A stretch of DNA of 64,000 nucleotides, taken from positions 8,865 to 72,864 of IMG/VR virus record IMGVR_UViG_3300025620_000004, one strand, 5' to 3'. Position 1 is the stretch's first letter; every line of letters starts with the position of its first letter. The notes beneath the pieces are model-generated. The model was not told the origin of the DNA. It did not search any database and saw nothing but the letters and a program-made list of their open reading frames with translations. A program made the translations under genes and the position numbers. Below are positions 9,713 through 32,737 of this stretch, one piece after another. Origin of the DNA: a virus.

Positions 9713-10125
9713 GCCAGATACGGGGTTTACTTGAAAGATTCGTAAAAGAAGACGATCAATCCATTGACATAGATAAATACTTATCTATATGTGAGCAACT
9801 TGGACAAGAGCCAGACCCCAATAAGATGCCGCTCGAGATCTCAGACTTTCCCTCTGAGGTCCAAGTGGCATTTTTTATATTCAGCTACCTTGAAGATAGA
9901 TTCGAAGGAATGTCGGGACAGTACATGGGCAAATCCTGGAATAATTTACAGTACTTATTTGAGTTGTTCGATGTAGAAGATAAAGCAGAAGTTTTATACA
10001 TAATGAAAATGTATGAAGGAATAATAGTCAAGCACTACTCAGATAAAGCAGAAAGAAAAAGAAAGGCAGAGGAAAGAAAGTCTGCGAGCGGTGGAAAACA
10101 GTACACCCATAATGTGAAAGGCTAA
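9691..10125 (+). CDS. Tail assembly chaperone frameshift extension (gpT-like)
   Basis: -1 frame is open from heptamer A AAT TTT (9691-9697) through WKQVSQIRGLLERF...PNKMPLEIS... to 10125. Confidence 0.75.
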   Translation, partial: KFYWKQVSQIRGLLERFVKEDDQSIDIDKYLSICEQLGQEPDPNKMPLEISDFPSEVQVAFFIFSYLEDRFEGMSGQYMGKSWNNLQYLFELFDVEDKAEVLYIMKMYEGIIVKHYSDKAERKRKAEERKSASGGKQYTHNVKG

Positions 10126-16350: not shown

Positions 16351-19300
16351 ATGAGACATGGCGGAAATGGCGGTGGTGGTGCCGGCACAGGTAACAGTGG
16401 TAATTCCAATCCAGGAGGTACAGGCACATCTAGCAATAATGCTGCTACAATTAGTACAAGCGCTAGCGATGCGCAGCTTGTTTCTATTACAGATGTTATT
16501 TCAGAAGGCCCCATACTAGGTTTAGTAGACGGTTCGGCTTCTGTATTCCTGAATAATGACAGAATTCACGAAGTATCTGCGGCAGGGCAACGTGTATCTC
16601 ATGGCCCTATGACTATCACTCTTACTAATGGGTCTACTTCAGCAACAATTAATAATGCAACTTCTACCACTCCCTTGACTGCAAATGCCTCGCTAGGAGC
16701 ACAACTATTAATACGAGGAGGAAATTTAACAGAAACAAGTGTAACAAGTAGTTATGATACTAGACATAAAGTAAGTTTATCTACTTCTTCAAGTACTTTT
16801 ACTCAAACTATGGTTACCGCAGTTGGTCAACGAGCAAGACCAGATAGTTTAGTTCCTGGGCGTATTAAACCGACGGGTAGCAGTACTACTCCTGACGGCC
16901 TTCCTATAGAAGGTTTTATATGGCGTAGAGTTAGCGGTACCGAGGCTCTTTGGAGATCAGGTGCTTTCGGTGATTATAACGATTTCAGGCTCGATGACGC
17001 AACGTACAAGCTAGAACTAGATAAAATAGTAAATATAAATGCAGGAGGTATTAATGGCTCCTCTATAACACTTGCAAGTGCTTGGGACGGAATATCGGGG
17101 ACATATAGCTGGGATAAAATAAGTGTAGTTAATATGGATATTTCTGAGGTAGGCAGTAGAGCTTCTCAGCGAGTACAAGGTGGTACTGTTAATTTCAGAC
17201 CAGGCACATTAAACCAAACTCCCATGCGCAGCGGTGGCGAAACTGCAATTAGTAGAACTATTGGCGAACAAATGGAGGTGGGAACTGCTCGATTTTTAGT
17301 GGGCAGTGGTAACTGCGGTCTCACAGAAGCTCAGCTTCTAGAAGTGGACAAACTAAGATGGCGTATTACTTATCCTGCAGGATTTAAAGCAATCAGCGGT
17401 AAAGGCAATGATAAAACTACTTACATAAGGTATAGAATAAGTATAGCAATAAAAGAGGAAGGAGACTCTGATTTCGGAGGTTTTACTATTATTAGAAATC
17501 CTCTAACTCATAGTGGTAACTATACTAACTCTAAAACTTTTGAAAGCGACTTAAATCTTGAAAGATTTCGCCCTTTCACAGACTTCAAACTAAAATTAGA
17601 AAGACTAGATACAGATGACGACCCCGGTTTTAAATCTGTAGGACAAACTTACAAAGACTGGACAAATGTTACTGCAGGTAGTCTTACAGGCGTGACTTCT
17701 ATTCTAAATGAAAAACTTAACCATCCTTATACTGCTATGGCTGATGTTTCTTTTAGCACGAAGCAGTATCAAGGTATACCTCAAAGAACTTATGATCTAT
17801 ACGGTAAAATGGTTAGAGTGCCTTCAAACTATGTTACAAGAGAAGAAGCAACCAATGGAGTAGCTTCTTATAATAGAAATACAAGTACTGGAGTCATTAC
17901 TAGCAATTACCAAGACTGGGACGGGGATTTTCGAGATGAATTAGTTTATAGTAACAACCCTGCTTGGATTTACTATGACATTCTTACTAATAATAGATAC
18001 GGTTTGGGTTCCTTCATTAAAGAAGTGGATATAGATAAGTATGCTCTTTACCGCGTTGCAAGATATTGTGACGGCTTAGTTCCCGATGGAAAAGGAGGAC
18101 TAGAGCCTAGGTTTACATTAAATACCTACTTGACAAAAGGGGCAAATAGTTATAAAGTTCTCAAAGACTTAGCAACTAACTTTTTAGGTTTGCTTTACTA
18201 CTTAGATGGACAGCTTTATACCTCTCTTGATGCTCCAGCAGCTCCGGTCTATACATTCAATAAAACTAATGTAATAGATGGTACATTTAGCTACGAGAGT
18301 TCTTCGGAGAAAACTAGAAGCAATCAAATTATTGTAAACTGGAATGACCCAACAAAAGACTATAAGATGGAGCCTTTAATCGTTGAAGATGAGCGAAATA
18401 TAGTCAATACAGGCAGAATTATATCTGAAACTGCAGTTGCTTTCGGCTGTACTTCAGAAGGGCAAGCTACACGATACGGTAAATGGAAACTATGGACAGC
18501 AGCAAATCAGAAAGAGATAGCTACTTTTTCAGCAAGCCTAGAAGGTGCATTTGTAGCTCCTGGCGATATAATCAATATCCAAGATGCGGATAGATATGCT
18601 GTAAGACTGGGCGGACGAGTTTCAAATACAGGAACTCTTAGCACTACTACTATACCTTTAGACTCTACTGTTCTTTTGAATTCAGGATCTACATATACTT
18701 TAAGCTTGGTTTATCCTAAGCCTGCTGCATTCACTAGAGAAGCTGTTACTATAAGCGGAGTTAGTTATGAAGCAGGAGATTTAATACATCAAGCGTATGT
18801 TGATGGCTCTTTAACAGTAATTGATACTAAAGAAAAGTCTGTAAACGCTAAAGTATCTGCATCTTCCGGAGCCGAACCTTTAACACTTGACTTCAATGCC
18901 AATCTACGAACAGAAACAAAAGATATAACTTCTAGTCAAATTGGAAGTTCTGTAACTTCTATCACTGTGACCTCTGCATTTACAGAGGCTCCTACTAGAG
19001 AATCCTTGTGGGTTCTTCAAGAGACAAAAACTGGATTACAGGTAAAAGGGTCTAAAAAAGAATACAAAGTTTTATCTATCTCTGAAAACTCTGGCAATGT
19101 CTACGATATAACGTGTATTGAACATTATGACAGCAAGTGGACTTCTGTAGAAGAAGATTTTACTACATACATACAAGGAGATTTAGAGCCCTCTCTACTA
19201 AGCACAGATGTTGTTCCGCCTGTCGAAAACTTGATAGCAAGAAGTCACGGCAGAGATAATGGTACAGCCCATGAAACCTTACTTGTTTCTTGGGATCCAC

Positions 19301-22300
19301 CAGGGGCAGGACAAGCTTACGTTAGAAACAGTACCGGAGGTAGACATAATCAAACGGTTAGTCAAGAATACGAATACTTACTTGGATATATCGTAGAACA
19401 CAATTTACCCGAATATGAAAATCCTATGAGGGTAGGCAGGGACACAACTGAACTTTTATTTTCGGATTTAGTCCCAGACGACTATACAATAACGGTAAGA
19501 ACAGTTAATGCGATAGATAATGTATCAGAAGCAATTAGTGTTCAAACAACTATAACTGATCGTTTCCAGGATGCTATACCCAGATTCCCCTTAGGTCTTC
19601 CCTATGGTGGTACGTCTAATGTTGCTATAAAAACCATAAACAGTACTTCTGGCGATTCAGACTACGGATTATTTGAGTTGGCAAAAAGTGTTTACATCTT
19701 TAGTCCTGAACAAACAAACGGGTTCGGTATAAACCAGACTTCAACAGCAGCTTCTACATATCAACAAGATGTATCAGGAATTGCGGAAACAGCTGCAGTA
19801 GCTTCTTCAGAGTCTGGTACTTTTATTGACAGGCATTATTATGTATCTTTAAACTCAGCTGTAGCCACTGATAACCTCACACTACTTAAATATAATAAAA
19901 CACCAAATCACCGTGTTCCATATTGGTATGATGCGGGGAACGGTAGTAATACAACTGGTTTAACGAATCTTACAGGTACTATAAGTGTATCGGGTTCTAC
20001 TGTTACAGGTTCTGGTACAAGTTTTACTTCTGAACTAGTAGTAGGAGCACTTCTACAAACAACATCTACTGCAGCAGCTATAGTTACCTCGGTAGTTAGT
20101 GACACAGCCGTTTATATTGATAGAATTTTACCAGACGGATCGGGTATAACCGCTCAGACTAACAATCATAGATTTGATTTTGATAATGAAACTATTATAG
20201 CCAAAGTTTACGCTACAGATAATGGAGCAGCCAATAAAGTATTTTCGATGGAGCCTTATATGTCGTTGGACGCAAATGTCCAAGCACAACAAGGTGTTAC
20301 CAGAACTCTATACTACAGAGCTACTAATAATGGAGCAGCCGGCACTATTAATACTACTACAGGTACTTTTGACGACCCTGCAACTGGAGCAGCCACAGGG
20401 TGGCAGTTAGCAAATCCTGGACTACAAGCCAATGGCGATATTATTTATGCTATAACTCGTATCTTTACCAACGATGGTCTAGCCCCTCAAGAGGCTAGTT
20501 GGTCAACCGCTTCTATTGTTGCAAGACGACAAGATGGTGCGGCAGGTAATGCTGCAAAAGTAGTATCTTTGCGCGCTAGTAAATCAGTTATAGAGTATGC
20601 TGCAGATGGTACTACTGGCTCAGGTCAAACTATTACTTTAACTGCGGAATCAAAAAACTTCGATGATGGATACTTCAGGTTCACAGCAGATGATGGCTCT
20701 TTTACTACAATAGACTGGGTTGATGGTACTACCGCAAATACCAAAACAGCCACGTATAGTATACCTACAAGCTACAATGCAGACCCTATTACTTTTACTG
20801 TACAGGTTAAAGAGGGTAGCTCTGGCTCCGAAGAAGCTAGAGATGTTCTTACTATTCCTTCAATTAAGCCAGGTGTTGACGCAATAGATGCACTAACTGT
20901 AGTTATGACAAACGAAGCTCATGCAATTCCTAGAGCTTCGGCAACGGCTACACCTGACTTCACAGGCTCAGGAAATACTATTAGAGTCTTCGAGGGGACA
21001 ACAGAACTAGACCACGATAATACAGGCACCGCTGCCAGTCATTATAAAGTTGTTACTACAGGCTCTACTAACTGTACTCCAGGTAATTTAACTGGTGAAG
21101 GTTCTAATGTTCTTTCGGCAACCTTTGACCAGATCACGGGAATAACAGGAAATACGGCACTCGTAAAATATACTATAACAGGTAAGCGAGCAGACGGAAC
21201 AGCTTTCTCCCTTGTTAGATTCCAGTCTTTAACTAGAACAACGGACGGAGCTCCTGGTAATCCCGCTGTAGATGAAAAAACAGTCATTGTATACAAGAAG
21301 TTTGCCGCAGGAGTATCAGCGCCTACAGCAATTACATTTACTTCTGGCAATAATGCAACAGATCAAACCCACTCGAATCCTACAAATGAGCTAGACGGTT
21401 GGACTATTGCTTATCCTTCTATAAGTGTTGAAGGCGATCGAGTTTATTCAGGACAAAGAACCTTCACATTAACTGGAGGCGATAGCTCTTGGACTTTCAA
21501 CGGACTAGTTGCAGAAATAAAGACAGGGCCTAGAACAGCTACAATACAGTTGCATTATTCTGCTGCTGTGACTGATGGAAGTACTCCTGCAAAGCCAACT
21601 ACTTCCAATACTCACACATTTAATTTTGCAGCTAGTACTTTTGGGACTATAAAAACAGGATGGCAGCATGGAGCACCAACGTATGCTTCGGGTAACTCTA
21701 ATAAATACTACTACTCTTTTGCGACTATTACCGAGTCTTCTTTTGGAGGTTCTCAGACTATAACTTTCGGTAATACAACTCAAGCTATAGGATTCTCCGG
21801 CTTAGTTACCTTTACTTCAGCAGGTGTGTTAGAGGACGACCAATATTCGATTACGCCTCTTACTACTCACCAAGATGTAAGTAGTTTTATGGAGGCAGCA
21901 GATGTCGCAGACCATATTGGTGGAGCCAACACCTCAACTATTGATGGAGGTAAGATCAACGCAGGCAGCTCTGTTACAGTAGGAACTAGCGGAACTAACC
22001 GAGCAGGCTTATCAGGAGTAGGAACTGCAGAAACCGATATTAGAGTTTTTTCGGGAGCAGCTTTTGCCAACAGAGCAACAGCACCTTTTAGAGTAACACA
22101 GGCAGGTGAATTTAGGTCTTCTACTGGTATTATAGGCGGATTTACGTTCGGTGATGATGCCATGACCACTAGCCAAGACACTATATTAAGACTTGGTTCT
22201 GATCTCGGAAATAACATAGATCAAAGTGTGACTTTATCTTCCAGGTCTGAAGATGATTATGTTATTTATGCAGGTCATGCTCCTACAGATGATGATCCAG

Positions 22301-23871
22301 TGACTACAGACGCTCCTCCTCCTTTTGGTGTAGAAAAGAACGGTAATGTAACTATGCGGTCTTATCAGCTTACTGATACTGCAGGCGCTATTGTATTTGA
22401 CTCAGAAAACTTATTAGGTGGACCCGTACTAGCTCAGATTCAGAACTTGGTAGGGAATTTTACAGATAGTGTTACTACCTCTATTCACGCTTCCGGTCAT
22501 ATCAAAGTAGAACTAGGGGCTGCTCAAAACGTACAAATTGGTTATGAAGTACCTCTAGGAAATCCCTATGTGAGTGACGTATCTACAAGTGTAGCTGACG
22601 TTATGAATGCGTTACCTTCAGCCATTAAAGTAAATGTTGAGTACTCTACTAATAATGGAGCATCTTGGAGTTTATTTGGTGCTCAAACTTTTAGTAGACT
22701 ATCTAGTACAGACGCCAATGCTACTACAAGCGCCTCTCAGTATCTTGTTCATGGAGATTCTTATGATGCTCGCTCGGGCGGTACCAGATACGTAGCACAT
22801 ATTGTTAGTAATAAAGGAGCAGTATCTGCAACAGGCGGCTTAAAAGGCACTATAACAGGTTCAGGAAATTTATCAGCAGGTACTTACTTATTTAGAATAG
22901 ATGATACTTCAGGTACTTCCGGTAATTCAGGAATTGTATGGACTGCCGGGTCTTATACTGGCTATGGCTATACCTTCCATAAGTATGGTAGCGGCTCCTC
23001 GAACGACCCTGCTCAGGCTTTTGCAAAAAATGCAGATAGAGTGTACATTGTAGGTTCTAGTTCTTCGACAGGAGGTACAGCAGGTGCTGGTTATACTATT
23101 AATACAAATACTAGTCCACCTCACGTTAAAGATTCTACTTTTAATATAGAGTATATGCCTATTACAGGAGGTACTTTTACAGGTGCGCTTAACTGGGGAA
23201 CAGACACTGCCAGCATAAACTATGGTAACTACGGTACGGGTACTGATGTTTTTAGCGTGAATCTAGGTAGCAACTCTAACGGGATAGTATTTGGACTGAA
23301 TGGTAATGCCTTGCAATTGCAGGACAATCTTAGTGCACATCATTCATTTGATAATAATGGAGACATTAGGTTCACAGGAGACTTAAAACAGCTCGACGAT
23401 GGAGATACTAAGATATCTTTCACCAACGACAAAATAAGTTTTCTAGCCGGTAATGCTACAATGATGGAGTTAGTTGAAGTAAGCACAGGATATGATTACG
23501 TTAGACTAGGAAATACTGGTGATGGCAATGATACCATTACGTTTAATCTATCAGCAGGCTCAGGTGTCTTTACAGGAAATGTAACAGCTTACTCAGATAT
23601 AAGTCTTAAAGAAAATATAGAAGTTATTGATAATGCCGTAGATAAAGTCAGTAAACTAAGAGGTGTTACTTTTGACCGAATCGATAAAGAAGCCATTCCC
23701 AGACAAACGGGACTTATCGCTCAAGAACTAGAAAAAGTGTTGCCTGAAGCTGTGGAAACTAATGAGCTATCAGGTATAAAGTCGGTAGCTTATGGCAATG
23801 TCGTAGGTCTTTTAGTAGAAGCAATTAAAGAACTCAAAGAAGAAATCGAAGAGTTAAAAAGGAGTAAATAA
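16351..23871 (+). CDS. Central tail tip/fibre (lambda gpJ-like) with C-terminal S74 intramolecular chaperone
   Basis: DVISEGPI.G, NNPAWIYYD.LTN.RYGLG, FGCTSEGQA.R.GKW; C-term YSDISLKENI...LRGVTF...GLIAQEL..V.PEAV...V.Y..VVGLLVEAIKEL. Confidence 0.92.
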   Translation: MRHGGNGGGGAGTGNSGNSNPGGTGTSSNNAATISTSASDAQLVSITDVISEGPILGLVDGSASVFLNNDRIHEVSAAGQRVSHGPMTITLTNGSTSATINNATSTTPLTANASLGAQLLIRGGNLTETSVTSSYDTRHKVSLSTSSSTFTQTMVTAVGQRARPDSLVPGRIKPTGSSTTPDGLPIEGFIWRRVSGTEALWRSGAFGDYNDFRLDDATYKLELDKIVNINAGGINGSSITLASAWDGISGTYSWDKISVVNMDISEVGSRASQRVQGGTVNFRPGTLNQTPMRSGGETAISRTIGEQMEVGTARFLVGSGNCGLTEAQLLEVDKLRWRITYPAGFKAISGKGNDKTTYIRYRISIAIKEEGDSDFGGFTIIRNPLTHSGNYTNSKTFESDLNLERFRPFTDFKLKLERLDTDDDPGFKSVGQTYKDWTNVTAGSLTGVTSILNEKLNHPYTAMADVSFSTKQYQGIPQRTYDLYGKMVRVPSNYVTREEATNGVASYNRNTSTGVITSNYQDWDGDFRDELVYSNNPAWIYYDILTNNRYGLGSFIKEVDIDKYALYRVARYCDGLVPDGKGGLEPRFTLNTYLTKGANSYKVLKDLATNFLGLLYYLDGQLYTSLDAPAAPVYTFNKTNVIDGTFSYESSSEKTRSNQIIVNWNDPTKDYKMEPLIVEDERNIVNTGRIISETAVAFGCTSEGQATRYGKWKLWTAANQKEIATFSASLEGAFVAPGDIINIQDADRYAVRLGGRVSNTGTLSTTTIPLDSTVLLNSGSTYTLSLVYPKPAAFTREAVTISGVSYEAGDLIHQAYVDGSLTVIDTKEKSVNAKVSASSGAEPLTLDFNANLRTETKDITSSQIGSSVTSITVTSAFTEAPTRESLWVLQETKTGLQVKGSKKEYKVLSISENSGNVYDITCIEHYDSKWTSVEEDFTTYIQGDLEPSLLSTDVVPPVENLIARSHGRDNGTAHETLLVSWDPPGAGQAYVRNSTGGRHNQTVSQEYEYLLGYIVEHNLPEYENPMRVGRDTTELLFSDLVPDDYTITVRTVNAIDNVSEAISVQTTITDRFQDAIPRFPLGLPYGGTSNVAIKTINSTSGDSDYGLFELAKSVYIFSPEQTNGFGINQTSTAASTYQQDVSGIAETAAVASSESGTFIDRHYYVSLNSAVATDNLTLLKYNKTPNHRVPYWYDAGNGSNTTGLTNLTGTISVSGSTVTGSGTSFTSELVVGALLQTTSTAAAIVTSVVSDTAVYIDRILPDGSGITAQTNNHRFDFDNETIIAKVYATDNGAANKVFSMEPYMSLDANVQAQQGVTRTLYYRATNNGAAGTINTTTGTFDDPATGAATGWQLANPGLQANGDIIYAITRIFTNDGLAPQEASWSTASIVARRQDGAAGNAAKVVSLRASKSVIEYAADGTTGSGQTITLTAESKNFDDGYFRFTADDGSFTTIDWVDGTTANTKTATYSIPTSYNADPITFTVQVKEGSSGSEEARDVLTIPSIKPGVDAIDALTVVMTNEAHAIPRASATATPDFTGSGNTIRVFEGTTELDHDNTGTAASHYKVVTTGSTNCTPGNLTGEGSNVLSATFDQITGITGNTALVKYTITGKRADGTAFSLVRFQSLTRTTDGAPGNPAVDEKTVIVYKKFAAGVSAPTAITFTSGNNATDQTHSNPTNELDGWTIAYPSISVEGDRVYSGQRTFTLTGGDSSWTFNGLVAEIKTGPRTATIQLHYSAAVTDGSTPAKPTTSNTHTFNFAASTFGTIKTGWQHGAPTYASGNSNKYYYSFATITESSFGGSQTITFGNTTQAIGFSGLVTFTSAGVLEDDQYSITPLTTHQDVSSFMEAADVADHIGGANTSTIDGGKINAGSSVTVGTSGTNRAGLSGVGTAETDIRVFSGAAFANRATAPFRVTQAGEFRSSTGIIGGFTFGDDAMTTSQDTILRLGSDLGNNIDQSVTLSSRSEDDYVIYAGHAPTDDDPVTTDAPPPFGVEKNGNVTMRSYQLTDTAGAIVFDSENLLGGPVLAQIQNLVGNFTDSVTTSIHASGHIKVELGAAQNVQIGYEVPLGNPYVSDVSTSVADVMNALPSAIKVNVEYSTNNGASWSLFGAQTFSRLSSTDANATTSASQYLVHGDSYDARSGGTRYVAHIVSNKGAVSATGGLKGTITGSGNLSAGTYLFRIDDTSGTSGNSGIVWTAGSYTGYGYTFHKYGSGSSNDPAQAFAKNADRVYIVGSSSSTGGTAGAGYTINTNTSPPHVKDSTFNIEYMPITGGTFTGALNWGTDTASINYGNYGTGTDVFSVNLGSNSNGIVFGLNGNALQLQDNLSAHHSFDNNGDIRFTGDLKQLDDGDTKISFTNDKISFLAGNATMMELVEVSTGYDYVRLGNTGDGNDTITFNLSAGSGVFTGNVTAYSDISLKENIEVIDNAVDKVSKLRGVTFDRIDKEAIPRQTGLIAQELEKVLPEAVETNELSGIKSVAYGNVVGLLVEAIKELKEEIEELKRSK

Positions 23872-24801: not shown

Positions 24802-25140
24802 ATGAGTGCAGCCCGCTACAACCTAGTTATTGACCAAGGTTCCGACTTTGCCATTAACTTTACTGTTAAAGACAACGGATCAGTTAAAAACCTGACAGGC
24901 TATTCTGCGCGTGCTCAAATGAGAACTTCAAAGACAGCTTCCTCAGTTGCGGCTACTTTTAATTGCGCTATTAATACTCCAGCAAACGGAACAATTACAA
25001 TGTCTTTAGCAAATTCAGTGAGCAGCCCGTTAACCGCAGGTACTTACGTTTATGATTTAGAAATCTTCACCGCTAACAATGCCAGTGTAACTAGATTAAT
25101 TCAAGGGTCTGTAGACCTCACTCAAGAGGTTACCCGATAA
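24802..25140 (+). CDS. Virion collar/baseplate adaptor (BppU/p132-like)
   Basis: YNL.IDQG.DF...NLTGYSARAQMR...G.YVYDLE.....TRLIQG motif. Confidence 0.7.
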   Translation: MSAARYNLVIDQGSDFAINFTVKDNGSVKNLTGYSARAQMRTSKTASSVAATFNCAINTPANGTITMSLANSVSSPLTAGTYVYDLEIFTANNASVTRLIQGSVDLTQEVTR

Positions 25141-25526: not shown

Positions 25527-26555
25527 ATGGCTCAAACAATTCAAATCAAGCGTAGTACTAGTACTACAACCCCCTCAAGCCTTACTGCAGGTGAATTAGC
25601 ATATTCAGGTAAGTCAGACAGTAATAAACTATTTATCGGACACCCCGACGGCACTACAGGTGTTGTTGCTATTGGTGGTCAATATTACACAGGCATTATT
25701 GATGGTGCCGCAAGTGCGAACACTGCAAGTAAATTAGTACTGCGAGACGGTTCAGGAAACTTCAGTGCTGGTACAATTACAGCTACTTTAACAGGTGATG
25801 TTACTGGTAACGCAGATACTGCCACAGCTCTTGCTTCAGGCAGAACGATTGCAATCACAGGGGACTTAGCGTATACTTCTCCTAGCTTTACAGGTGCTGG
25901 CAATGTTACCGCAGCAGGTACTCTTGCAACAGTAAACTCAGACGTAGGATCTTATGGTACTGCAACGGCAATTCCTGCAATCACTGTAAATGCAAAAGGT
26001 CTTGTTACAGCGGTTAGTACTAATAGTATTTCTTCTAGTTTTACTCTAGCGGCAGACAGCGGCACCAACGATACTTTCAATAATGGTGAAACTTTAACAC
26101 TTACAGGCGGAACAGGTGTTGCCACAACTGTTAGTAACAATGCGGTTTCTTTTGCAATCGGACAGGCAGTTGCTACCACCTCTAATGTAACATTCAATAA
26201 TGTTCAGGTAGACGGTACTCTAACTTCTGATGACATTACTTCTACAAATATCTCGGTTGCTGGTAATGCTACAATTACGGGTAATCTTACAGTTGAAGGT
26301 ACTACAACTACTGTTGATTCTACTACTGTTGCCATTGGTGATAACATCATGGTTCTTAACAAAGACGAAACAGGTACTCCTTCTGCAAATGCTGGTATCG
26401 AAGTTGAACGAGGAACTGCGACAAATGTATCGCTTCTTTGGAACGAAGGCAACGATAACTGGACTGTGAGCAATGGAAGTGCAACTTCCGTAATATTAAC
26501 TGCCGCAAACTTTGGAAGCACTTATACAGGTGCAATTGACGGCGGTACATTCTAA
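25527..26555 (+). CDS. Tail/side fibre protein
   Basis: MAQTIQIKRS...P..L..GELAY N-terminus (Mtd_N-like), G/T/N-rich shaft repeats, C-terminal IDGGTF. Confidence 0.75.
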   Translation: MAQTIQIKRSTSTTTPSSLTAGELAYSGKSDSNKLFIGHPDGTTGVVAIGGQYYTGIIDGAASANTASKLVLRDGSGNFSAGTITATLTGDVTGNADTATALASGRTIAITGDLAYTSPSFTGAGNVTAAGTLATVNSDVGSYGTATAIPAITVNAKGLVTAVSTNSISSSFTLAADSGTNDTFNNGETLTLTGGTGVATTVSNNAVSFAIGQAVATTSNVTFNNVQVDGTLTSDDITSTNISVAGNATITGNLTVEGTTTTVDSTTVAIGDNIMVLNKDETGTPSANAGIEVERGTATNVSLLWNEGNDNWTVSNGSATSVILTAANFGSTYTGAIDGGTF

Positions 26556-26603: not shown

Positions 26604-26834
26604 ATGGCACAAACGATCAAATTAAAGCGCTCGTCTACGGCGGGCTCTATTCCTACTCATTCACAACTAGAGTTAGGCGAAGTTGCTATCAATACTGCGG
26701 ACGGTCGTATGTATATGAAAGACGGAGCTAACGCCATTGTCTGGGTAAATAAAACTTCTGAAATTACAGGAACCACTCCGCAAGCATCGGACGGAACAAA
26801 TAAGCCCGTAGGGTATGTTTGGTATGTAGTCTAA
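26604..26834 (+). CDS. Short fibre adaptor paralogous to N-terminus of 25527 protein
   Basis: MAQTIKLKRS...P....LELGEVAINT.DG; C-terminal GYVWYVV. Confidence 0.65.
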   Translation: MAQTIKLKRSSTAGSIPTHSQLELGEVAINTADGRMYMKDGANAIVWVNKTSEITGTTPQASDGTNKPVGYVWYVV

Positions 26835-26835
26835 G

Positions 26836-29800
26836 ATGACTATTAAGGTTTGGAATGGTTCCGCAGTACAAGAACCAGAGCAAATAGTAGTTAAAGCTGC
26901 AGCGGGAACGTTGCGGTTTGTAAACTATGTCGTACAGAAAGTTACAGATGGAAGTCTGAATACTGTATGGAATGCTATTTACAATACAAGCCGATCTACC
27001 GATACCTCTAGAAGCTCTACAACTACTTTTACGACTACCTTTGACACTAGTGCAAGTACCAATATTAATACTACTACGGGATTTGATACAATCAGAGGTA
27101 CTACCAGAAGCACAAGTAGCACGTTTACTACTGCGTATGATACTTCTGCTGTTACTTCCAAGTCTACTACTACCGCTTACAGTACCACATTCGGTACAAC
27201 TGCAAGTACAACCACTACTTATGTGAGTAACTTCGATACAACTCGTGGTACTACAGTAAATACCACTACCTCTTTCAATACTACTTTTGCTACATCGAAA
27301 GATACTACTACTGCGTTTACCACTACTTTTGACACTGCTACTAGTGTGGCTACTACTACTGCGTTTACAACAACGTTTGAGACTACTCGCGCCACTGCGG
27401 TAGATACCACCACTACATTTACTACGACTTTCGCAACTAGTAAAACAACTAATACAGTATTTACTACTACGTTTAATACTACTACTACTCGTACTACCAC
27501 TACTGCGTATACGACTACTTTCAACACGAGTAAAACTACTCTACGAAATACCACGACCACGTACACTACTAGCTTTAATACTACAAAAAGCACTGTTACT
27601 ACGTTCAATACTGAATTTGCTACAGGTACGAGCAGAGCTACCACAACCACGTATACTACTACGTTTAACACTACTAGATCTACCACGATAGATACTACTA
27701 CTGCTTATACTACGACTTTTAATACTACTCGATCTACAACGATAGATACGACTACTACGTTTAATACTACGACTACTCGTAGTACTACGACTACGTATAC
27801 AACTAATTTTAATACTTCAAGAGGTACTTCTAAGTCTACTACTGTAAACACTACTACGACTTTTGATACTTCTCGAAGCACTTCTAAATCTACAACTACT
27901 GTATTCAATACTCAGACTTCAAGAGGTACAGATAGAGCAACCACTACGACCTTTAATACTTCTCGAAGCACAAGCAGGGGCACCAGTAAGTCTACCACTA
28001 CTACATTCCTAACAGGAACCTCACGTAGTACAACAACAGCTTTTGTTACTCAAACAAGTAAGTCAACCTCCAGAGCAACAACGTCTGTATACGATACTAG
28101 TAGAGGTACTTCCCGAGTTACTAGTAAAGCCACTACTACTGCTTTTGCTACGGGTACAAGCCGAAGCACTACTACAGCATATGCTACGTCGAGAGGCACA
28201 AGTCGTGCTACCAGTAGAGGTACTACTACAGTATTCGGAACAACTACAAGCCGAGGAACAACGACAGCCTTTAACACGACGACTACTTTTACTACAACTC
28301 GTGCCTCCAACACTGTATATGCCACAAGCAGAACTACCGGTACTTCGAGAAGCACAACAACAGCTTTTGCTACCGCTACAAGTCGAAGCACTGGAGAAAG
28401 TAGAAGCACAACTACTACGTTTAATACAAGTAGAGGTACAACTTTTGGTACCACTACTGTATTTGTTACAGCTACTTCAAGAGGTACTGGCGAAAGTAGG
28501 GGTACTACTACGAGTCGAGGAACGGCTACGAGTCGTACAACATCTTTCAATACCACTACTTCTTTTGGTACTACGACTGCGTATACTACTACAAGTTCAT
28601 TTACTACAACTTTTGCTACCACGACTGCATACACAACTACAACTGCATTTACCACAACTTTTAGTACCACGACTGCGTATACAACTACAACCTCGTTTAC
28701 GACTGCATTCGGCACTACTACAGCGTACACAACTACTACTTCGTATACAACTACTACTACATTTGGTACTACTACTGCATATACTACATACTATACAGCT
28801 AGTACGAGCAGAGGTACTACTACGTCTCGTGGTACGTCTCGTGGTACGTCTCGTGGTACAAGCCGAAGCACTACTACTGCCTTTGTGGGGCAGACTGCCT
28901 ATGCTAGTTTAGTAGTACGAACTACTACGTTTACTACGTATTATAATACCGCGTATACTACATACTACTATTCTCGTAGCCATACAAGCAGGGGTACTTT
29001 AAGAGCAACCAGTAGAAGCACAAGTAGAACTACCACATTCTATCAAGATGTAAGACATGATACGGCAAAAAGTCGAGGAACAACCACTGCTTTCACTACT
29101 AGTTATACTACCTACTGGAGTACAACTTTTGGTACTACCACTACTTTCGGTACTGCGAAAAGTCGCGCAACAAGCCGTAGTACTGCTACAAGTAGAGGTA
29201 CAGGAGAATCTCGAGGAACAGGGGAGTCCAGGAGCACTACTACTTCTCGCGGTACAAATAGAGCAACAGCAGAATCTAGAGGCACTGCTACAAGCAGAGG
29301 CACTTCTAGAGCAACAGCAGAATCCAGAAGTACTGCTACAAGCAGAGGCACTTCTAGAGGTACAGGAGAGTCCAGAAGCACTACTACAAGCAGGGCAACA
29401 GGAACTAGTCGTACAACTACATTTACTACAACTACTTCTTTCGGTACAACCACAGCGTATACAACAACTACTACGTTTGGCACTGCCACAAGTAGAGGTA
29501 CTACTACGAGTCGTACTACTACGTTCGGAACCAATAGAAGTACAACTACAGCGTATACAACAACTACTACGTTTAATACAATTACCAGTAAAGCTACTAC
29601 TACTGCTTTTGGTACGACTACTACTTTTGACACAAGTAAGAGTACTACCACAACCTATAACACAAATAGGGCAACAGGAACGAGTCGAGGTACTACTACT
29701 GCTTTTGTTACAGCAACGAGTAAAAGTACAACCACAGCGTATACTACATCTTTTACTACTACTTTCGGTACTAGTAAAAGCACTACTACTTCGTTTAATA

Positions 29801-31062
29801 CTACAACTACTCGTAGTACAACGACTACGTATACCACTGCGTTTTCTACAACTTTTAATACGTCGTTAAGTACAACTACTACATTTACTACTACATTTGG
29901 CACTACGACTACTAGGGCTACAACGACTGCGTTTAATACTAATACTACGCTTGCTACTACAACTGCTTATACTACTACGTTTACTACTACTTTTGCAACA
30001 AGTAAAAGTACTACTACCGCGTTTACTACTACTTTTGCGACAGCTACAAGTAAAAGTACAACTACTACTTTCAATACTACGTTCGCTACAAGCAAAAGTA
30101 CTGGCTGTGTGTATACTACTGCATATACTACTACATTTGGTACCAGTAATATAACATCAAAGGCAACTACGACAGCATTCCTAACCGCTACTAGTAAAAC
30201 AACTACTAGTACGTATACTACTACTTTTGCCACAAGTAAAGGTACTTCGAAAACGACCACTAGTACATATACTACTATATTTAATACTAGTAATGTAACC
30301 GATAAATCAACTACTACGGCGTTTAATACTACTACATCTCGTTCTACTACGAAAGACACTACTACTACGTTTATAACTAGTAGAACTACTACGAATGAAA
30401 CTGGTTGCACCTATACTACTACTTTCGCAACGAGCCGAGGTACAACTAAAGACACAACTACTGCATTCTCTACTGCCACATCCAGAACTACTAATTTTGA
30501 TACTACAACTGTATTTGATAGTTCCAGAAGTACAACAAAGAGCACTAGTAGCCAGTATACCACTGTCTTTAATACTAACCGAGGCACTAGCAAGTCCACT
30601 ACCTCTGTATTTAATACTGCAACCAGTAGAGGCACTGATCATCAGACAAGCACCGTATATGATACAACAGGAGGAACTTCTAGAGTTACTTCGAGTGCAT
30701 TTGTTACTGTATTTAATACGACTGTAACTACGGATAAAAGTACCACTACAGCATTCGATACCTCCAGAGCCACTACTAAAAGCACTACCAGTAATTATAC
30801 TACTACGTTTGCTACTTCTAAGAGCACGCAAGTTACTACAACTACTGCATTCTCTACAGTTTATAATACTACTCGTAGTACTACTACTACGCGTACAACT
30901 ACTTTTGAAACGAGCAAATCGACTTCAAGAGCTACCACTACTACGTTCGGAACAAACACAGTTGTTTATGAGCGTATCACAAGTACAGGAGTTGAGACCG
31001 AGGTTTCATCTTCTTCTGCACACAACTCACGATATTGGGATGGATCACAATGGACGGAATAA
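26836..31062 (+). CDS. Thr-rich self-complementary fibre protein (predicted giant antiparallel beta-hairpin)
   Basis: 1408 aa; 50-aa N-cap (KVWNGS) and ~30-aa C-cap (YWDGSQW) flank T-x-(T-x)-Z-x units whose order and lengths mirror about residue ~715. Confidence 0.85.
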   Translation: MTIKVWNGSAVQEPEQIVVKAAAGTLRFVNYVVQKVTDGSLNTVWNAIYNTSRSTDTSRSSTTTFTTTFDTSASTNINTTTGFDTIRGTTRSTSSTFTTAYDTSAVTSKSTTTAYSTTFGTTASTTTTYVSNFDTTRGTTVNTTTSFNTTFATSKDTTTAFTTTFDTATSVATTTAFTTTFETTRATAVDTTTTFTTTFATSKTTNTVFTTTFNTTTTRTTTTAYTTTFNTSKTTLRNTTTTYTTSFNTTKSTVTTFNTEFATGTSRATTTTYTTTFNTTRSTTIDTTTAYTTTFNTTRSTTIDTTTTFNTTTTRSTTTTYTTNFNTSRGTSKSTTVNTTTTFDTSRSTSKSTTTVFNTQTSRGTDRATTTTFNTSRSTSRGTSKSTTTTFLTGTSRSTTTAFVTQTSKSTSRATTSVYDTSRGTSRVTSKATTTAFATGTSRSTTTAYATSRGTSRATSRGTTTVFGTTTSRGTTTAFNTTTTFTTTRASNTVYATSRTTGTSRSTTTAFATATSRSTGESRSTTTTFNTSRGTTFGTTTVFVTATSRGTGESRGTTTSRGTATSRTTSFNTTTSFGTTTAYTTTSSFTTTFATTTAYTTTTAFTTTFSTTTAYTTTTSFTTAFGTTTAYTTTTSYTTTTTFGTTTAYTTYYTASTSRGTTTSRGTSRGTSRGTSRSTTTAFVGQTAYASLVVRTTTFTTYYNTAYTTYYYSRSHTSRGTLRATSRSTSRTTTFYQDVRHDTAKSRGTTTAFTTSYTTYWSTTFGTTTTFGTAKSRATSRSTATSRGTGESRGTGESRSTTTSRGTNRATAESRGTATSRGTSRATAESRSTATSRGTSRGTGESRSTTTSRATGTSRTTTFTTTTSFGTTTAYTTTTTFGTATSRGTTTSRTTTFGTNRSTTTAYTTTTTFNTITSKATTTAFGTTTTFDTSKSTTTTYNTNRATGTSRGTTTAFVTATSKSTTTAYTTSFTTTFGTSKSTTTSFNTTTTRSTTTTYTTAFSTTFNTSLSTTTTFTTTFGTTTTRATTTAFNTNTTLATTTAYTTTFTTTFATSKSTTTAFTTTFATATSKSTTTTFNTTFATSKSTGCVYTTAYTTTFGTSNITSKATTTAFLTATSKTTTSTYTTTFATSKGTSKTTTSTYTTIFNTSNVTDKSTTTAFNTTTSRSTTKDTTTTFITSRTTTNETGCTYTTTFATSRGTTKDTTTAFSTATSRTTNFDTTTVFDSSRSTTKSTSSQYTTVFNTNRGTSKSTTSVFNTATSRGTDHQTSTVYDTTGGTSRVTSSAFVTVFNTTVTTDKSTTTAFDTSRATTKSTTSNYTTTFATSKSTQVTTTTAFSTVYNTTRSTTTTRTTTFETSKSTSRATTTTFGTNTVVYERITSTGVETEVSSSSAHNSRYWDGSQWTE
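26986..30969 (+). repeat. Degenerate 12/18-nt codon-level repeat array (ACN-rich)
   Basis: About 265 units of 4 or 6 codons; includes 48-nt tandem duplications at 28600-28695 and 29260-29355 and a 54-nt one at 27640-27747. Confidence 0.85.
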
Positions 31063-31187
31063 CCCTCAAAGAATTAAACCACAAAATAGAAACAACTTTA
31101 GAAATAGTCATGGAGCACTTCGTAGAAATGGAAGAGCGAATGGAAGATTTAGAGACTCAGCTTGAGGAATTACAGGATGGGGCTTAA
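31050..31187 (+). CDS. Small acidic coiled-coil protein (45 aa, not in ORF track)
   Basis: Hand translation MDGITLKELNHKIETTLEIVMEHFVEMEERMEDLETQLEELQDGA; overlaps both neighbours. Confidence 0.65.
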   Translation: MDGITLKELNHKIETTLEIVMEHFVEMEERMEDLETQLEELQDGA

Positions 31188-32049
31188 AAGACTAGCAGAT
31201 AAAGATGAGCTAGGAAATAAGGCAGCACACTTCTTTAAGTCTGGTAATATAATGCGTACAGACGAAAACGATGAAGTTACAAAACTGAAAGAGCTGCTTC
31301 CTGCCCGAGGAAACTGGGGAACACCTTTAGAATACGATGTCTGGTACGATATTGCGGAAGAAGAAATTGCTGGGTATACGTACACCGATTGTTTTTCTAA
31401 ATGTATAATGATACGTGTCGCGTCTTACGAGAAAGCAAATCGTACAATGAGACTAGCAGCCAAAGAGCCTATAAGCGAAGAAGGTTTAGCTATTTTTAAC
31501 GAACTCCGTGATAATAGTCACGATAAGTATAAACTTAGCAAAAGAAAACAAAAGCAGCATAAGTTTGTAATCTTTCTCCCAGGTACTAATATCATAGACA
31601 AAGTTTTAAATTACGATAAAGCTAAAAGGGCAGTGGCACAAGGTGCTGTACTAAAATGCCATCCTTTAACAGCTCCCGGAATGGTAGCATATCTCAAATC
31701 AGAGTTTGGTAGAGAGAATGTTATAGACAAGAAACTGTCTGGCCATAAACTTCTGGATGAGGCTGATATTGTAGGTTGTTGTAGCAACTCTGAAATGGGC
31801 TTGCTTGCAATTGCGAAAGGGAAAACAGTATACACTTTTGACTCAAAACCTGATTTACAGACTACTTACGGAGCAATCTACAGAGCAATCTGGGGTAAGG
31901 ATGATATGCCTAGCGTGAATAGATTTAAGAGATTACTTTCCTCAAAGTATTCCGGTATCATTCCTTACTTTATAGACAACCCGCAAGAAAGAATAAACTA
32001 TTATTTTAATTTTTGGAAAGCAAACCCCCATGCAATACCTCGTAATTGA
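31177..32049 (+). CDS. KpsS/KpsC (Capsule_synth)-like glycosyltransferase
   Basis: K.HP motif (LKCHP) and ADIV...NSEMGLLAIAKGKTV resembling the NS..G.EA...GK.V motif; start ATG 31177 with GAGGA RBS. Confidence 0.6.
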   Translation: MGLKRLADKDELGNKAAHFFKSGNIMRTDENDEVTKLKELLPARGNWGTPLEYDVWYDIAEEEIAGYTYTDCFSKCIMIRVASYEKANRTMRLAAKEPISEEGLAIFNELRDNSHDKYKLSKRKQKQHKFVIFLPGTNIIDKVLNYDKAKRAVAQGAVLKCHPLTAPGMVAYLKSEFGRENVIDKKLSGHKLLDEADIVGCCSNSEMGLLAIAKGKTVYTFDSKPDLQTTYGAIYRAIWGKDDMPSVNRFKRLLSSKYSGIIPYFIDNPQERINYYFNFWKANPHAIPRN

Positions 32050-32737
32050 AAATGAGTTTACAGCCCTTACTGTAAACTCTATAAAACAAAACATGCCTGA
32101 TGCAAAATACGTGACTGCCCCTATGGGAGAGGGCAGGATTCAGACAGCTTTAAAACTGTGCACAGAGCCTACTATGGTAGTTACAGGCGGTATTATACTC
32201 AATATAAAAGAAGGAGATTTACCAGACCCTAAAGTGCTGGAAACTAAACACTTGGCAATGAGTAGAGAAGCAGTTTTTGCAGATCACCCTAGATGGAACC
32301 GGAACTATGAACTCATAAAAAGTCGTTTGCATGACGGAGTTGTGGATATGTCTATTTTTATTATTAACCCTGTAAAATGGAAAAAGATACCTAAAAAAGA
32401 TATTAATTTTTTACTTGGAAAAAAGATATTGTATATGCCAAGATATATGAATCATAGAGATGATCCAACACTAGGAACTTGTATGGGTGGAAAAGATATA
32501 CTGGCATATGCGTCTTTGGGAGAGGACGCCTCTGTGCATAACTATCTTACTCACCTATACTCAGGAAAAGCTAGTGTAAGAGAGACGTTTGGATGTTGTT
32601 TTGATAAGCTACTACCCTATACGGAAGGTTTAGACGAAAGAGAAAAAGAGATAGTAGAAAAACTAGGTAATCTTACAAAGGTAAGGGTAGGAAAGTTAAG
32701 GCAGATGATGATAGACAGAAAAAAAGCCCCTGATTAA
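32030..32737 (+). CDS. Degenerate GT-A/GT8-like protein
   Basis: LTVNSI..N.P, DMSIFIINP..W, MPRYMN resemble GT8; canonical DxD absent. Confidence 0.45.
   Translation: MQYLVIENEFTALTVNSIKQNMPDAKYVTAPMGEGRIQTALKLCTEPTMVVTGGIILNIKEGDLPDPKVLETKHLAMSREAVFADHPRWNRNYELIKSRLHDGVVDMSIFIINPVKWKKIPKKDINFLLGKKILYMPRYMNHRDDPTLGTCMGGKDILAYASLGEDASVHNYLTHLYSGKASVRETFGCCFDKLLPYTEGLDEREKEIVEKLGNLTKVRVGKLRQMMIDRKKAPD

What the first reader, a model, noticed from the sequence alone, without database searches (positions are those of the whole stretch)
26836..31062. A self-complementary protein: 1408-aa Thr-rich fibre whose two halves pair like a reverse-complement hairpin
Seen: residues 51 to ~1378 parse into units of 4 or 6 aa (T-x-Z-x or T-x-T-x-Z-x). 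Z is either aromatic (A = F/Y/W) or basic/polar (B, mostly R/K). Reading outward from the centre (TYYY-SRSH-TSRG, nt ~28960-28995), the left arm gives AAAA B AA BBBBB A16 BBBB AA B A BB A BB A B AA B A BBB and so on. The right arm gives the exact complement BBBB A BB AAAAA B16 AAAA BB A B AA B AA B A BB A B AAA. The 4/6 spacing also mirrors (4,6,6,6,6,4,6,6,4,6,6,4,6,6,6,4 across the 16-unit run on both sides). Register i+j=1430 holds with no indel from Y711:R719 through I303:Y1127 to R59:F1371. My hand parse gives ~133 pairs with only three departures from aromatic:non-aromatic (F:F, I:R, terminal R:V). Inference: one continuous two-stranded antiparallel beta-ribbon of ~665 residues per arm (~200 nm if extended), zipped by Thr:Thr and cation-pi cross-strand pairs. 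The aperiodic A/B and 4/6 pattern would act as a barcode allowing only one register. N- and C-caps (KVWNGS / YWDGSQW) would meet at the base. An antiparallel dimer is the alternative. I know of no described phage fibre with this architecture, and standard annotation would call it low-complexity.
Basis: partly seen in the sequence, partly recalled or inferred. Interest (0 to 1): 0.97.

Follow-up and report, generated by a model that had tools for sequence, protein, structure and literature searches.

The report
Self-pairing fold-back phage fibre protein
A 1408-residue threonine-rich phage tail-fibre protein has two halves that match residue for residue when one is read backwards, and relatives keep the match through paired changes, so the chain very probably folds back on itself into an extremely long thin beta ribbon of a kind not described in the papers and libraries searched.

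Summary
In the 1408-aa ORF (26836-31062, +), 249 of 259 aromatic or basic residues sit on odd positions. At register i+j=1430, the 332 in-phase pairs are 171 Thr:Thr, 113 aromatic:basic and 1 aromatic:aromatic. None is basic:basic, and no large residue faces Thr. Unit shuffles give 34±2 pairs (max 48 of 2000) against 113. The next-best register has 118 violations of 320, against 1 of 332.

The cause is not DNA: there are 0 inverted repeats, and dN/dS is 0.12-0.20.

Relatives of 1430 and 1521 aa keep one register (S minus length = 22), so indels were matched on both arms. Twenty-six short relatives (298-352 aa) have equal arms around a globular tip domain. T4-like baseplate proteins, including Stenotrophomonas phage DLP_6, carry the same module.

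Best reading: one chain folds back at residue ~715. This is inferred from comparison, not seen. AlphaFold2 left the arms unmodelled, and the oligomeric state is unknown.

I found no Pfam, PHROG or PDB match and no paper. This scan has already found the same design on other DNA.

The parts
26604..26834 (+). 76-aa adaptor gene. Its N-terminal ~47 residues resemble the N-termini of large tail-fibre proteins. It stops 1 nt before the fibre gene's ATG.
   Evidence: PHROG hits to N-termini of tail-fibre and baseplate proteins, E 2.2e-10 to 2.3e-4. Sequence read. The same 76-aa gene sits immediately upstream in L002, L003 and L004.
26836..31062 (+). Fold-back fibre gene, 1408 aa plus stop.
   Evidence: dN/dS is 0.12-0.20 against L002-L004.
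26836..26985 (+). N-terminal cap, residues 1-50 (MTIKVWNGS...VNYVV...).
   Evidence: Conserved in L002-L004 and in short relatives. Modelled as short strands at pLDDT 62-69 in relative P0027.
26986..28968 (+). Left arm, residues 51-711. Units are T-x-Z-x or T-x-T-x-Z-x, with all Z on odd positions.
28969..28989 (+). Apex, residues 712-718 (between Y711 and R719), centred on S715. It is Tyr-rich and the repeat pattern breaks here.
   Evidence: Relatives carry 25-94-aa inserts at this point.
28990..30972 (+). Right arm, residues 719-1379. It is the mirror complement of the left arm at i+j=1430.
30973..31062 (+). C-terminal cap, residues 1380-1408 (...TEVSS..HNSRYWDGSQWTE), plus stop.
   Evidence: Conserved in 26 of 26 short relatives and in ORFs of 26 of the 30 loci L012-L041. 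The match to DUF2510 is below threshold (E 0.0013, 18.9 bits against a cut-off of 24).
28555..28742 (+). Left-arm tandem array, period 48 nt, 3.9 copies (residues 574-636).
29259..29397 (+). Right-arm tandem array, period 48 nt, 2.9 copies (residues 809-854). It lies inside the mirror image (794-856) of the left-arm array.
24802..25140 (+). 112-aa LtfC-like protein, a candidate collar or assembly protein for lateral fibres.
   Evidence: phrog_3304 'L-shaped tail fiber protein assembly', E 2.9e-20. PF23926 LtfC, E 2.8e-4, below cut-off.

Best explanation
The gene encodes a lateral (side) tail fibre of an uncultured siphovirus. One polypeptide runs out for about 660 residues, turns at residues 712-718 and runs back. 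Residue i lies beside residue 1430-i in an antiparallel beta ribbon.

One face of the ribbon carries all the odd-position residues. These form a ladder of Thr:Thr pairs interrupted every 4 or 6 residues by an aromatic residue facing Arg/Lys, or less often a small or aliphatic residue. The other face carries only small residues (T, S, A, G, N).

The irregular order of aromatic-left and aromatic-right pairs, together with the 4/6 spacings, fixes one global register. It also disfavours like-with-like association of identical arms. The N- and C-terminal caps lie together at the base. They probably dock on the 76-aa adaptor encoded just upstream, and through it on the tail tip. The Tyr-rich turn is then the distal end.

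The stalk lengthens in evolution by matched duplications on both arms.

Shown here: the pairing rule, its significance, its conservation through matched indels and paired swaps, and its independence of DNA structure.

Inferred: the fold-back (rather than pairing between chains), the beta-ribbon geometry, the length (about 660 x 0.33 nm, roughly 200-220 nm), the attachment, the binding function, and whether hairpins bundle into trimers.
For: 1. The pairing rule is far beyond chance.
2. The two-residue phase is strict over 1328 residues, 249 of 259. This is expected for an uninterrupted beta strand with two different faces.
3. Three syntenic relatives were compared: L002 (1408 aa, 97% identical), L003 (1430 aa, 66%) and L004 (1521 aa, 71%). 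Each has a single dominant register (112, 108 and 115 pairs against 46-57 for the next), and S minus length is 22 in all. All indels fall in residues ~513-1030. For L004 against the window they sum to 59 residues on the left and 59 on the right, less 3 and 2 window-only residues.
4. In the indel-free outer arms, 33 of 231 pair columns vary. Two swap R:Y to Y:R or R:F to F:R (columns 489, 499). In one case the large pair moves on both arms together (columns 483/485). No variable column produced aromatic:aromatic or basic:basic.
5. Twenty-six short relatives (298-352 aa) share the same caps. Their left and right arms (73-95 aa) are equal within 1 residue in 25 of 26 (r = 0.94). The apex length (68-90 aa) varies independently. 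The exception, P0057, has extra arm units that were aligned into the apex.
6. I scanned 30 further IMG/VR loci and found cap-bearing Thr-rich ORFs of 305-1074 aa in 26. Of these, 21 have S minus length of 22-23, and apex inserts are 25-94 aa. L020 showed no clear register.
7. Of 14 hits to the whole protein, 12 are T4-like 'baseplate wedge' proteins. Their C-terminal Thr-rich domain has its own single register. In P0003 the in-phase pairs are 71 T:T, 40 aromatic:basic and 1 Thr:aromatic of 129. There the chain must return towards its baseplate domain.
8. The centre is always special: a Pro-containing turn in L003, a Pro/Gly loop in P0003, or a globular domain. In P0027 that domain was modelled at pLDDT 80-92.
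9. There is no DNA palindrome. I found 0 inverted repeats of 30 nt or more. Watson-Crick complementarity at the implied register is 0.198, against a mean of 0.253.
10. dN/dS is 0.12-0.13 at dS 1.4-1.8.
11. Gene context is a lambda/T5-like tail module: tape measure, J-like protein and an LtfC-like protein.
Against: No structure supports it. AlphaFold2 on residues 600-830 alone gave pLDDT 35 and a wrong local hairpin. AlphaFold2 with a 26-row alignment left both arms of P0027 at pLDDT ~30 with no secondary structure.

Sequence complementarity alone cannot distinguish pairing within a chain from pairing between two antiparallel chains. A 660-pair ribbon without a hydrophobic core has no solved precedent.

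The pairing code is not unique locally.

In the short P0020 clade the arms are so regular (10-aa period) that the register is ambiguous by ±10.

Host, virion morphology and expression are all unknown.
Confidence: 0.72

Rival explanations
1. The same complementarity is used between chains. Two or more extended chains lie antiparallel, head to tail, with residue i of one chain beside residue 1430-i of another. This would give a rod about twice as long, or a sheet or network, rather than a fold-back hairpin.
For: The sequence rule i+j=1430 is satisfied equally by such a dimer. No structural model decides the matter.
Against: The centre is always a turn, a Pro/Gly loop or an inserted globular domain. 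A continuous dimer would have no need for that. In the T4-like proteins a 700-aa baseplate domain precedes the arms, so a dimer would place baseplate domains at both ends of the rod. Zipping within a chain from a turn should also be kinetically favoured; this last point is inference.
Confidence: 0.13
2. Three fold-back chains assemble into a six-stranded trimeric needle, as in the T4 gp37 tip. The small-residue face is packed inside and the Thr/aromatic/Arg face lies outside. This refines the best explanation rather than contradicting it.
For: Phage fibres are usually trimers. The T4 gp37 needle is a trimer in which domain D10 is built from residues 811-881 and 1010-1026 flanking D11 (882-1009), so each chain goes out and returns (PMC6957217, passages read). 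The even-position face here is T/S/A/G/N only, small enough for a narrow core.
Against: Only one register stands out. A second, inter-chain strand pairing left no complementarity signal: the next registers give 45-46 pairs, within the shuffle maximum of 48. There are no HxH iron-binding repeats, with only 4 His in 1408 aa. There are no aliphatic core residues.
Confidence: 0.3
3. The region is a disordered, mucin-like and perhaps O-glycosylated Thr-rich spacer. On this view the mirror pattern is a by-product of repeat history or of a nucleic-acid palindrome.
For: The protein is 43% Thr and 13% Ser. Predictors treat the arms as disordered. NCBIfam gives only a composition-level 'serine-rich protein' hit, 34 bits against a cut-off of 650. 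The downstream 295-aa protein has a sub-threshold Capsule_synth match (E 0.023).
Against: A disordered spacer does not need a strict 2-residue phase, zero Thr:large mismatches in 332 pairs, matched indels or paired swaps. There is no DNA inverted repeat. Direct duplications cannot create a mirror-complement order. The downstream gene pair occurs beside terminase genes, with no Thr-rich fibre in the fetched stretch, in 7 of 10 related loci. Glycosylation of a folded ribbon is not excluded.
Confidence: 0.04

Closest known systems
Needle (domains D10-D11) of the phage T4 long-tail-fibre tip protein gp37
   Same: It is a phage fibre in which each chain runs to the distal tip and returns, so N- and C-proximal segments lie side by side (D10 = residues 811-881 plus 1010-1026 around D11; PMC6957217, passages read). 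The receptor-binding end is at the turn.
   Different: In gp37 the out-and-back part is about 200 residues. It is an obligate trimer, held by seven His-coordinated iron ions and a Phe core. Here each arm has about 660 residues, there are only 4 His and no aliphatic core, and a residue-by-residue aromatic:basic / Thr:Thr rule applies. No sequence match to any PDB chain was found.
C-terminal domain of the 'baseplate wedge subunit' of Stenotrophomonas phage vB_SmaS-DLP_6 (P0008) and 11 metagenomic T4-like relatives
   Same: It has the same Thr-x-Thr-x-aromatic/basic units, the same strict phase and the same antiparallel self-complementarity in one register (37 pairs at S=1949 against 20 for the next). 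It was hit by phmmer with the window protein (E 1.8e-8).
   Different: It is fused behind a ~700-aa baseplate domain (phrog_17744, E 2.3e-236) and lacks the KVWNGS/RYWDGSQW caps. The arms are ~250-290 residues and the apex is a non-repetitive stretch of ~30 aa. It is annotated only by its N-terminal domain, and I found no description of the C-terminal design.
Short cap-bearing relatives (P0020, P0027 and others, 298-352 aa; unnamed family)
   Same: They share the N-cap and C-cap, the base register (S minus length = 22 in the P0027 clade) and the Thr-rich arms.
   Different: The arms are only 73-95 aa and flank a ~70-90-aa globular apex domain (pLDDT 80-92). That domain's best structural match is a Gp38-domain protein of Rhizobium phage RL2RES (Foldseek E 2.5e-5, 116 columns, TM 0.20). 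The window protein has no such domain, only a 7-residue turn.
Designed or natural beta hairpins stabilised by cross-strand Thr:Thr and aromatic:Lys/Arg pairs, and coreless single-layer beta-sheet rods such as SasG or OspA (recalled from memory, not from a call)
   Same: They use cross-strand side-chain pairing rather than a hydrophobic core to hold an extended beta structure.
   Different: Those run for tens of residues, or are built from modular domains. None is a single 660-pair hairpin with an aperiodic pairing order.

Membership tests
T4 gp37 needle-type fold-back tip | Sequence or profile similarity to gp37 or solved needle structures | tested here: not met
   phmmer of P0001 against PDB sequences gave 0 hits at E<=1. 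There is no Pfam family above cut-off.
T4 gp37 needle-type fold-back tip | Repeated His motifs coordinating iron along the axis | tested here: not met
   There are only 4 His in 1408 residues. The iron and His description is from PMC6957217.
T4 gp37 needle-type fold-back tip | The chain goes out to a distal tip and returns beside itself | tested here: inconclusive
   This is inferred from mirror complementarity, matched indels and apex inserts. No structure was obtained.
T4 gp37 needle-type fold-back tip | Homotrimer | not testable with these tools
   No method available here measures the oligomeric state. It needs mass measurement or EM of the protein.
Unnamed cap-bearing Thr-zipper fibre family (defined here) | N-cap (..KVxxGS..VNYVV..) and C-cap (..TEV.S..RYWDGxxW..) | tested here: met
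   Present in the window protein, in L002-L004 and in 26 of 26 short relatives.
Unnamed cap-bearing Thr-zipper fibre family (defined here) | Single antiparallel register with S minus length of about 22 | tested here: met
   It is 22 in the window protein, L002, L003 and L004, and 22-23 in 21 of 26 cap-bearing ORFs.
Unnamed cap-bearing Thr-zipper fibre family (defined here) | Left and right arms of equal length | tested here: met
   Equal within 1 residue in 25 of 26 short relatives. The window protein has 0 Thr:large mismatches in 332 pairs.
Beta-solenoid antifreeze or ice-nucleation type TxT repeat proteins | Constant coil period, giving parallel in-register stacking | tested here: not met
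   Unit spacing is an irregular mix of 4 (69 times) and 6 (63 times). Only local tandem arrays were found. The signal is at i+j = constant, not at i-j = constant.
DUF2510 (PF10708) | Score above the Pfam gathering cut-off | tested here: not met
   18.9 bits against 24, covering residues 1395-1408 only.
Serine-rich protein NF033849 | Score above the NCBIfam cut-off | tested here: not met
   34 bits against 650. This is a composition-level match.

The most novel reading that the evidence does not exclude
Proteins can carry a nucleic-acid-like pairing code. Here an aperiodic order of aromatic:basic and Thr:Thr cross-strand pairs specifies the register of a single ~660-pair, coreless, two-stranded beta hairpin more than 200 nm long. 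The stem evolves like an RNA stem, through compensatory swaps and matched insertions. Several unrelated phage groups (siphoviruses, T4-like myoviruses) use it as a length-adjustable fibre stalk. If true, it is a new fibrous protein architecture and a ready-made rule set for designing register-specific beta ribbons.
Probability: 0.5. Interest if true: 0.95.

Novelty: categorically new. Interest (0 to 1): 0.88.

Why it matters
Known phage fibres are trimeric beta helices, beta spirals, coiled coils or collagen-like rods. A fibre built from one chain zipped to itself by a readable residue-pairing rule would be a new structural principle. It also comes with built-in evolutionary evidence, in the form of matched indels and paired swaps, of the kind normally seen only in RNA stems.

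It would explain a class of 'low-complexity' Thr-rich phage ORFs that annotation pipelines leave as hypothetical. It offers a stalk whose length can be tuned from about 25 nm to over 200 nm. It also gives protein designers a natural rule set for keeping long beta ribbons in register and out of amyloid-like aggregation.

A cultured phage (Stenotrophomonas phage DLP_6) carries the module, so the idea is directly testable.

Tried and rejected
**Structure prediction and fold searches**
- AlphaFold2 on window residues 600-830 without an alignment gave mean pLDDT 35.4 and was uninformative.
- AlphaFold2 on relative P0027 with 26 aligned sequences gave a confident apex domain only. Both arms stayed at pLDDT ~30.
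- Complex prediction with three copies of P0020 (302 aa, 26-row alignment) returned 'no answer' with score 0.00. It is not used as evidence either way.
- Fold searches with the P0027 model found little. VIA-align against 48,161 PDB representatives gave a best Z of 3.8. Foldseek against PDB gave no match at E<=0.001. Foldseek against BFVD gave one match at E<=0.001, the Gp38-domain protein.

**Sequence and database searches**
- The search for longer relatives of P0027 scored 8000 candidates and found none at E<=0.001. This is weak evidence, as the tool itself states.
- The HMMER search of 1.84 billion representatives with residues 1-1200 gave only 19 hits, mostly N-terminal fragments.
- tblastn of P0001 and of P0027 against 50,697 phage records gave no match. 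The low-complexity filter was on, so the arms were probably masked.
- megablast of 20 kb of the window gave no match.
- The ESM Atlas holds the sequence but has no model of it. The nearest clusters are viral 'hypothetical protein' clusters scoring 0.80-0.87, which are leads only.

**Alternative explanations rejected**
- A DNA or RNA palindrome as the cause is rejected.
- A 'glycosyltransferase operon' dedicated to the fibre is not supported. Pfam gives nothing at E<=0.01 and only Capsule_synth at E 0.023. The gene pair lies beside terminase genes, without a Thr-rich fibre in the fetched stretch, in L005-L011.
- The pair-column covariation count on alignment A1 was abandoned. The periodic arms made column partners ambiguous, with 97 of 129 left columns having more than one partner column. 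I used arm-length matching instead.

**Literature**
- Six full-text searches found no description of this design.
- For PMC6957217, PMC12143355 and PMC10713586 I read only the passages returned by 'find'.
- The tail-fibre atlas paper (PMC12143355) contains none of the words threonine, hairpin, antiparallel or fold back in its main text.
- Supplements were not opened and may list fibre classes I could not see.

Full report
**What is there.** The window is part of a 72.9-kb IMG/VR virus record. Its plus-strand genes from about 10 kb to 32.7 kb form a siphovirus tail module:
- a tape-measure protein (10125-13370);
- minor tail proteins;
- a 2506-aa J-like central fibre with a C-terminal S74 chaperone domain (16351-23871);
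- an LtfC-like 112-aa protein (24802-25140);
- several small fibre-like genes.

The ORF in question (26836-31062) follows a 76-aa gene. The N-terminus of that gene's product matches the N-termini of large tail-fibre proteins (E down to 2.2e-10). Its stop codon lies one base before the ATG of the ORF. The ORF encodes 1408 residues, of which 600 are Thr.

**Check of the observation.** I coded residues as aromatic (FYW) or basic (RKH) and convolved the two indicators. This gives 114 aromatic:basic pairs at i+j=1430, and 46 in the next register.

Between residues 51 and 1378, 249 of 259 such residues lie on odd positions. Even positions hold only T, S, A, G, N, V and D, apart from a few exceptions.

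Printed antiparallel, the two arms match from residue ~51 to 711. The 332 in-phase pairs break down as follows:

| Pair type | Count |
|---|---|
| Thr:Thr | 171 |
| aromatic:basic | 113 |
| aromatic:other (A, V, I, N, G, L) | 17 |
| basic:other | 4 |
| Thr:other (S, E, C) | 24 |
| other:other | 2 |
| aromatic:aromatic | 1 |
| basic:basic | 0 |
| Thr opposite an aromatic or basic residue | 0 |

Shuffling the 4/6-residue units 2000 times gives a best register of 34.0±2.0 pairs (max 48), against 113. Shuffling only the aromatic/basic labels gives 58.4±5.5 (max 78), against 114.

I then counted clashes, defined as Thr:large, aromatic:aromatic or basic:basic. The true register has 1 of 332. The best alternatives have 118 of 320 and 122 of 331.

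The pairing order is not unique locally. Only 133 of 316 windows of 32 aa have the true partner as the sole clash-free placement.

**Not a nucleic-acid effect.** The gene has no inverted repeat of 30 nt or more. At the nucleotide register implied by the protein pairing (4289), Watson-Crick complementarity is 0.198. That is below the mean over all registers (0.253±0.061). The highest values (0.38) occur at many unrelated registers and reflect codon periodicity.

Against L003 and L004, synonymous sites are near saturation (dS 1.4-1.8) while dN/dS is 0.12-0.13. The pattern is therefore maintained at the protein level.

**Relatives keep the rule through matched changes.** I used the downstream gene as a handle to fetch ten IMG/VR loci. 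Three of them carry the fibre gene in the same position, behind the same 76-aa gene.

| Locus | Length (aa) | Identity to window | Pairs in best register | S minus length |
|---|---|---|---|---|
| L002 | 1408 | 97% | 112 | 22 |
| L003 | 1430 | 66% | 108 | 22 |
| L004 | 1521 | 71% | 115 | 22 |

The next register in these relatives gives 46-57 pairs. A one-sided indel would split the register in two, and none does.

All alignment gaps lie between residues ~513 and ~1030. For L004 against the window they sum to 59 residues on each arm, less 3 and 2 window-only residues. The odd total difference of 113 residues is taken up at the apex, since S is odd in L004.

In the indel-free outer arms, 198 of 231 pair columns keep their class. 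Among the 33 that vary:
- two swap R:Y to Y:R or R:F to F:R;
- in one case the large pair moves two residues on both arms together;
- most of the others replace the basic partner by N, V, A, G, Q or L while the aromatic stays.

No variable column generates aromatic:aromatic or basic:basic.

Inside the window gene there are matched tandem arrays. A 48-nt array lies on the left arm (residues 574-636). A 48-nt array lies on the right arm (809-854), inside the mirror image of the left one (794-856). A 54-nt duplication on the left (46 of 54 identical, residues ~272-308) faces a more diverged one on the right (40 of 54, residues ~1118-1153). The background for that comparison is 25.0±5.5.

**A family with variable stalk length.** The HMMER search of 1.84 billion representatives gave only 19 hits. 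Two of them, P0020 (302 aa) and P0027 (340 aa), are complete short versions. They have the same N-cap, a Thr-rich arm, a globular middle, a second Thr-rich arm and the same C-cap.

A word-based search with P0027 gave 43 hits, and I aligned 26 full-length ones. Measured between conserved anchors, the left and right arms (73-95 aa) are equal within one residue in 25 of 26, while the apex (68-90 aa) varies independently. The outlier, P0057, has extra arm units that were aligned into the apex.

A pattern scan of IMG/VR with this alignment gave 30 loci. Cap-bearing Thr-rich ORFs of 305-1074 aa were found in 26 of them:
- 21 of the 26 have S minus length of 22-23;
- four have other offsets (20, 20, 32, 43), and the starts of these stop-to-stop ORFs are uncertain;
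- one (L020) shows no clear register.

Apex inserts are 25-94 aa and often contain GG[FWY]TY[QY]R. The window protein is the long extreme of the family and has the smallest apex, 7 residues between Y711 and R719.

**The same module elsewhere.** Of the 14 hits to the whole protein, 12 are ~1250-1416-aa T4-like 'baseplate wedge' proteins. One of them is from the cultured Stenotrophomonas phage vB_SmaS-DLP_6. Their C-terminal ~570 residues follow the same rule, each in its own register. For P0003, S=1972 gives 41 pairs against 19 for the next register, and the in-phase pairs are 71 T:T, 40 aromatic:basic and 1 Thr:aromatic of 129. P0002 and P0012 show no such peak.

The N-terminal domain of these proteins occurs in 65 phage records, but only DLP_6 matched over 80% or more of the query.

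**Fold-back or dimer?** Sequence complementarity alone fits both. I favour the fold-back for three reasons:
- The symmetry centre is always a turn, a Pro/Gly loop or an inserted globular domain.
- In the T4-like proteins the arms follow a large baseplate domain, so a head-to-tail dimer would put baseplate domains at both ends.
- The apex domain of P0027 was modelled confidently (pLDDT 80-92), with strands at both of its borders.

That apex domain's only notable structural match is a Gp38-domain (receptor-recognising) protein of Rhizobium phage RL2RES. The Foldseek E-value is 2.5e-5 over 116 columns, with a TM-score of only 0.20 on full length. This fits a distal binding tip.

Whether hairpins bundle into trimers is open. 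Only one register carries signal, and I obtained no positive evidence on copy number.

**How it probably works (inference).** The caps sit together at the base. In register, Y31 faces R1399, and YWDGSQW faces residues 24-30.

The 76-aa adaptor probably links the caps to the tail tip. The link may run through an LtfC-like collar, as in T5-like phages, where LtfA N-termini add strands to LtfC sheets (PMC10713586, passages read). The LtfC-like call here rests on a PHROG hit (E 2.9e-20) and a sub-threshold Pfam hit.

The ribbon would extend about 200-220 nm (660 x ~0.33 nm). That is longer than the tail expected from a 1081-aa tape measure, taking the usual ~0.15 nm per residue (a recalled figure).

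The protein carries 123 Arg+Lys against 44 Asp+Glu. It is therefore strongly basic, with aromatic rings spaced every 1.4-2 nm along one face. It could act as a long capture line ending in a Tyr-rich tip, or it could bind anionic glycans along its length.

The alternating orientation of the pairs should also discourage like-with-like stacking of identical arms.

**Comparison with what is known.** I found no Pfam family above cut-off, no PHROG, no NCBIfam family above cut-off and no PDB sequence match. Six literature searches found no paper.

The closest solved analogue is the out-and-back needle of T4 gp37. It differs in size, in its iron/His chemistry, in its trimeric core and in lacking any pairing code.

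Earlier notes of this scan report the same design on at least seven other genomes. I did not test those, and I do not count them as support.

**Verdict.** The fold-back reading is well supported by comparative evidence but has no structural proof. The ribbon geometry, oligomeric state, length and function remain inferences.

Noticed in passing
window 26604-26834 and 25527-26555: The 76-aa and 342-aa proteins begin with nearly the same motif (MAQTI[KQ][LI]KRS...). Their N-termini match the N-termini of many large tail-fibre proteins in PHROGs. The 121-aa and 342-aa proteins end in similar tails (..LDAGAF, ..IDGGTF). This looks like a chain of short fibre segments that plug into one another.
   Followed up: partly
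window 31162-32049 and 32030-32737: This downstream gene pair (295 and 235 aa; phrog_26179; sub-threshold Capsule_synth, E 0.023) recurs in seven other viral contigs (L005-L011). There it lies next to terminase-like genes, with no Thr-rich fibre in the fetched stretch. It is probably not dedicated to the fibre.
   Followed up: partly
window 16351-23871: The 2506-aa J-like central tail fibre combines a Phage-tail_3 domain with a C-terminal distal long-tail-fibre-like region and a Peptidase_S74 intramolecular chaperone domain.
   Followed up: no
window 24802-25140: A 112-aa protein resembles the T5/DT57C LtfC collar or assembly protein (phrog_3304, E 2.9e-20; PF23926 below cut-off). This hints that lateral fibres attach in the T5 manner.
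   Followed up: partly
P0012 (1098 aa, metagenomic): A Thr/Ser-rich Trp/Tyr-Lys repeat tract is followed by a long Leu/Val-rich tail. The tail looks like the same repeat DNA read in another frame, possibly from a frameshift or assembly error. No mirror register was detected.
   Followed up: no
P0030 (315 aa, metagenomic): This is another short member. Its Thr-rich arms flank a different, non-homologous ~110-aa middle domain, which suggests that apex domains are exchangeable cassettes.
   Followed up: no
window residues 797-909 of the ORF (nt ~29224-29562): In the all-basic run, Glu replaces the middle Thr of many 6-residue units (T-G-E-S-R) and always faces Thr on the other arm. It may offset the charge of consecutive Arg residues.
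   Followed up: no
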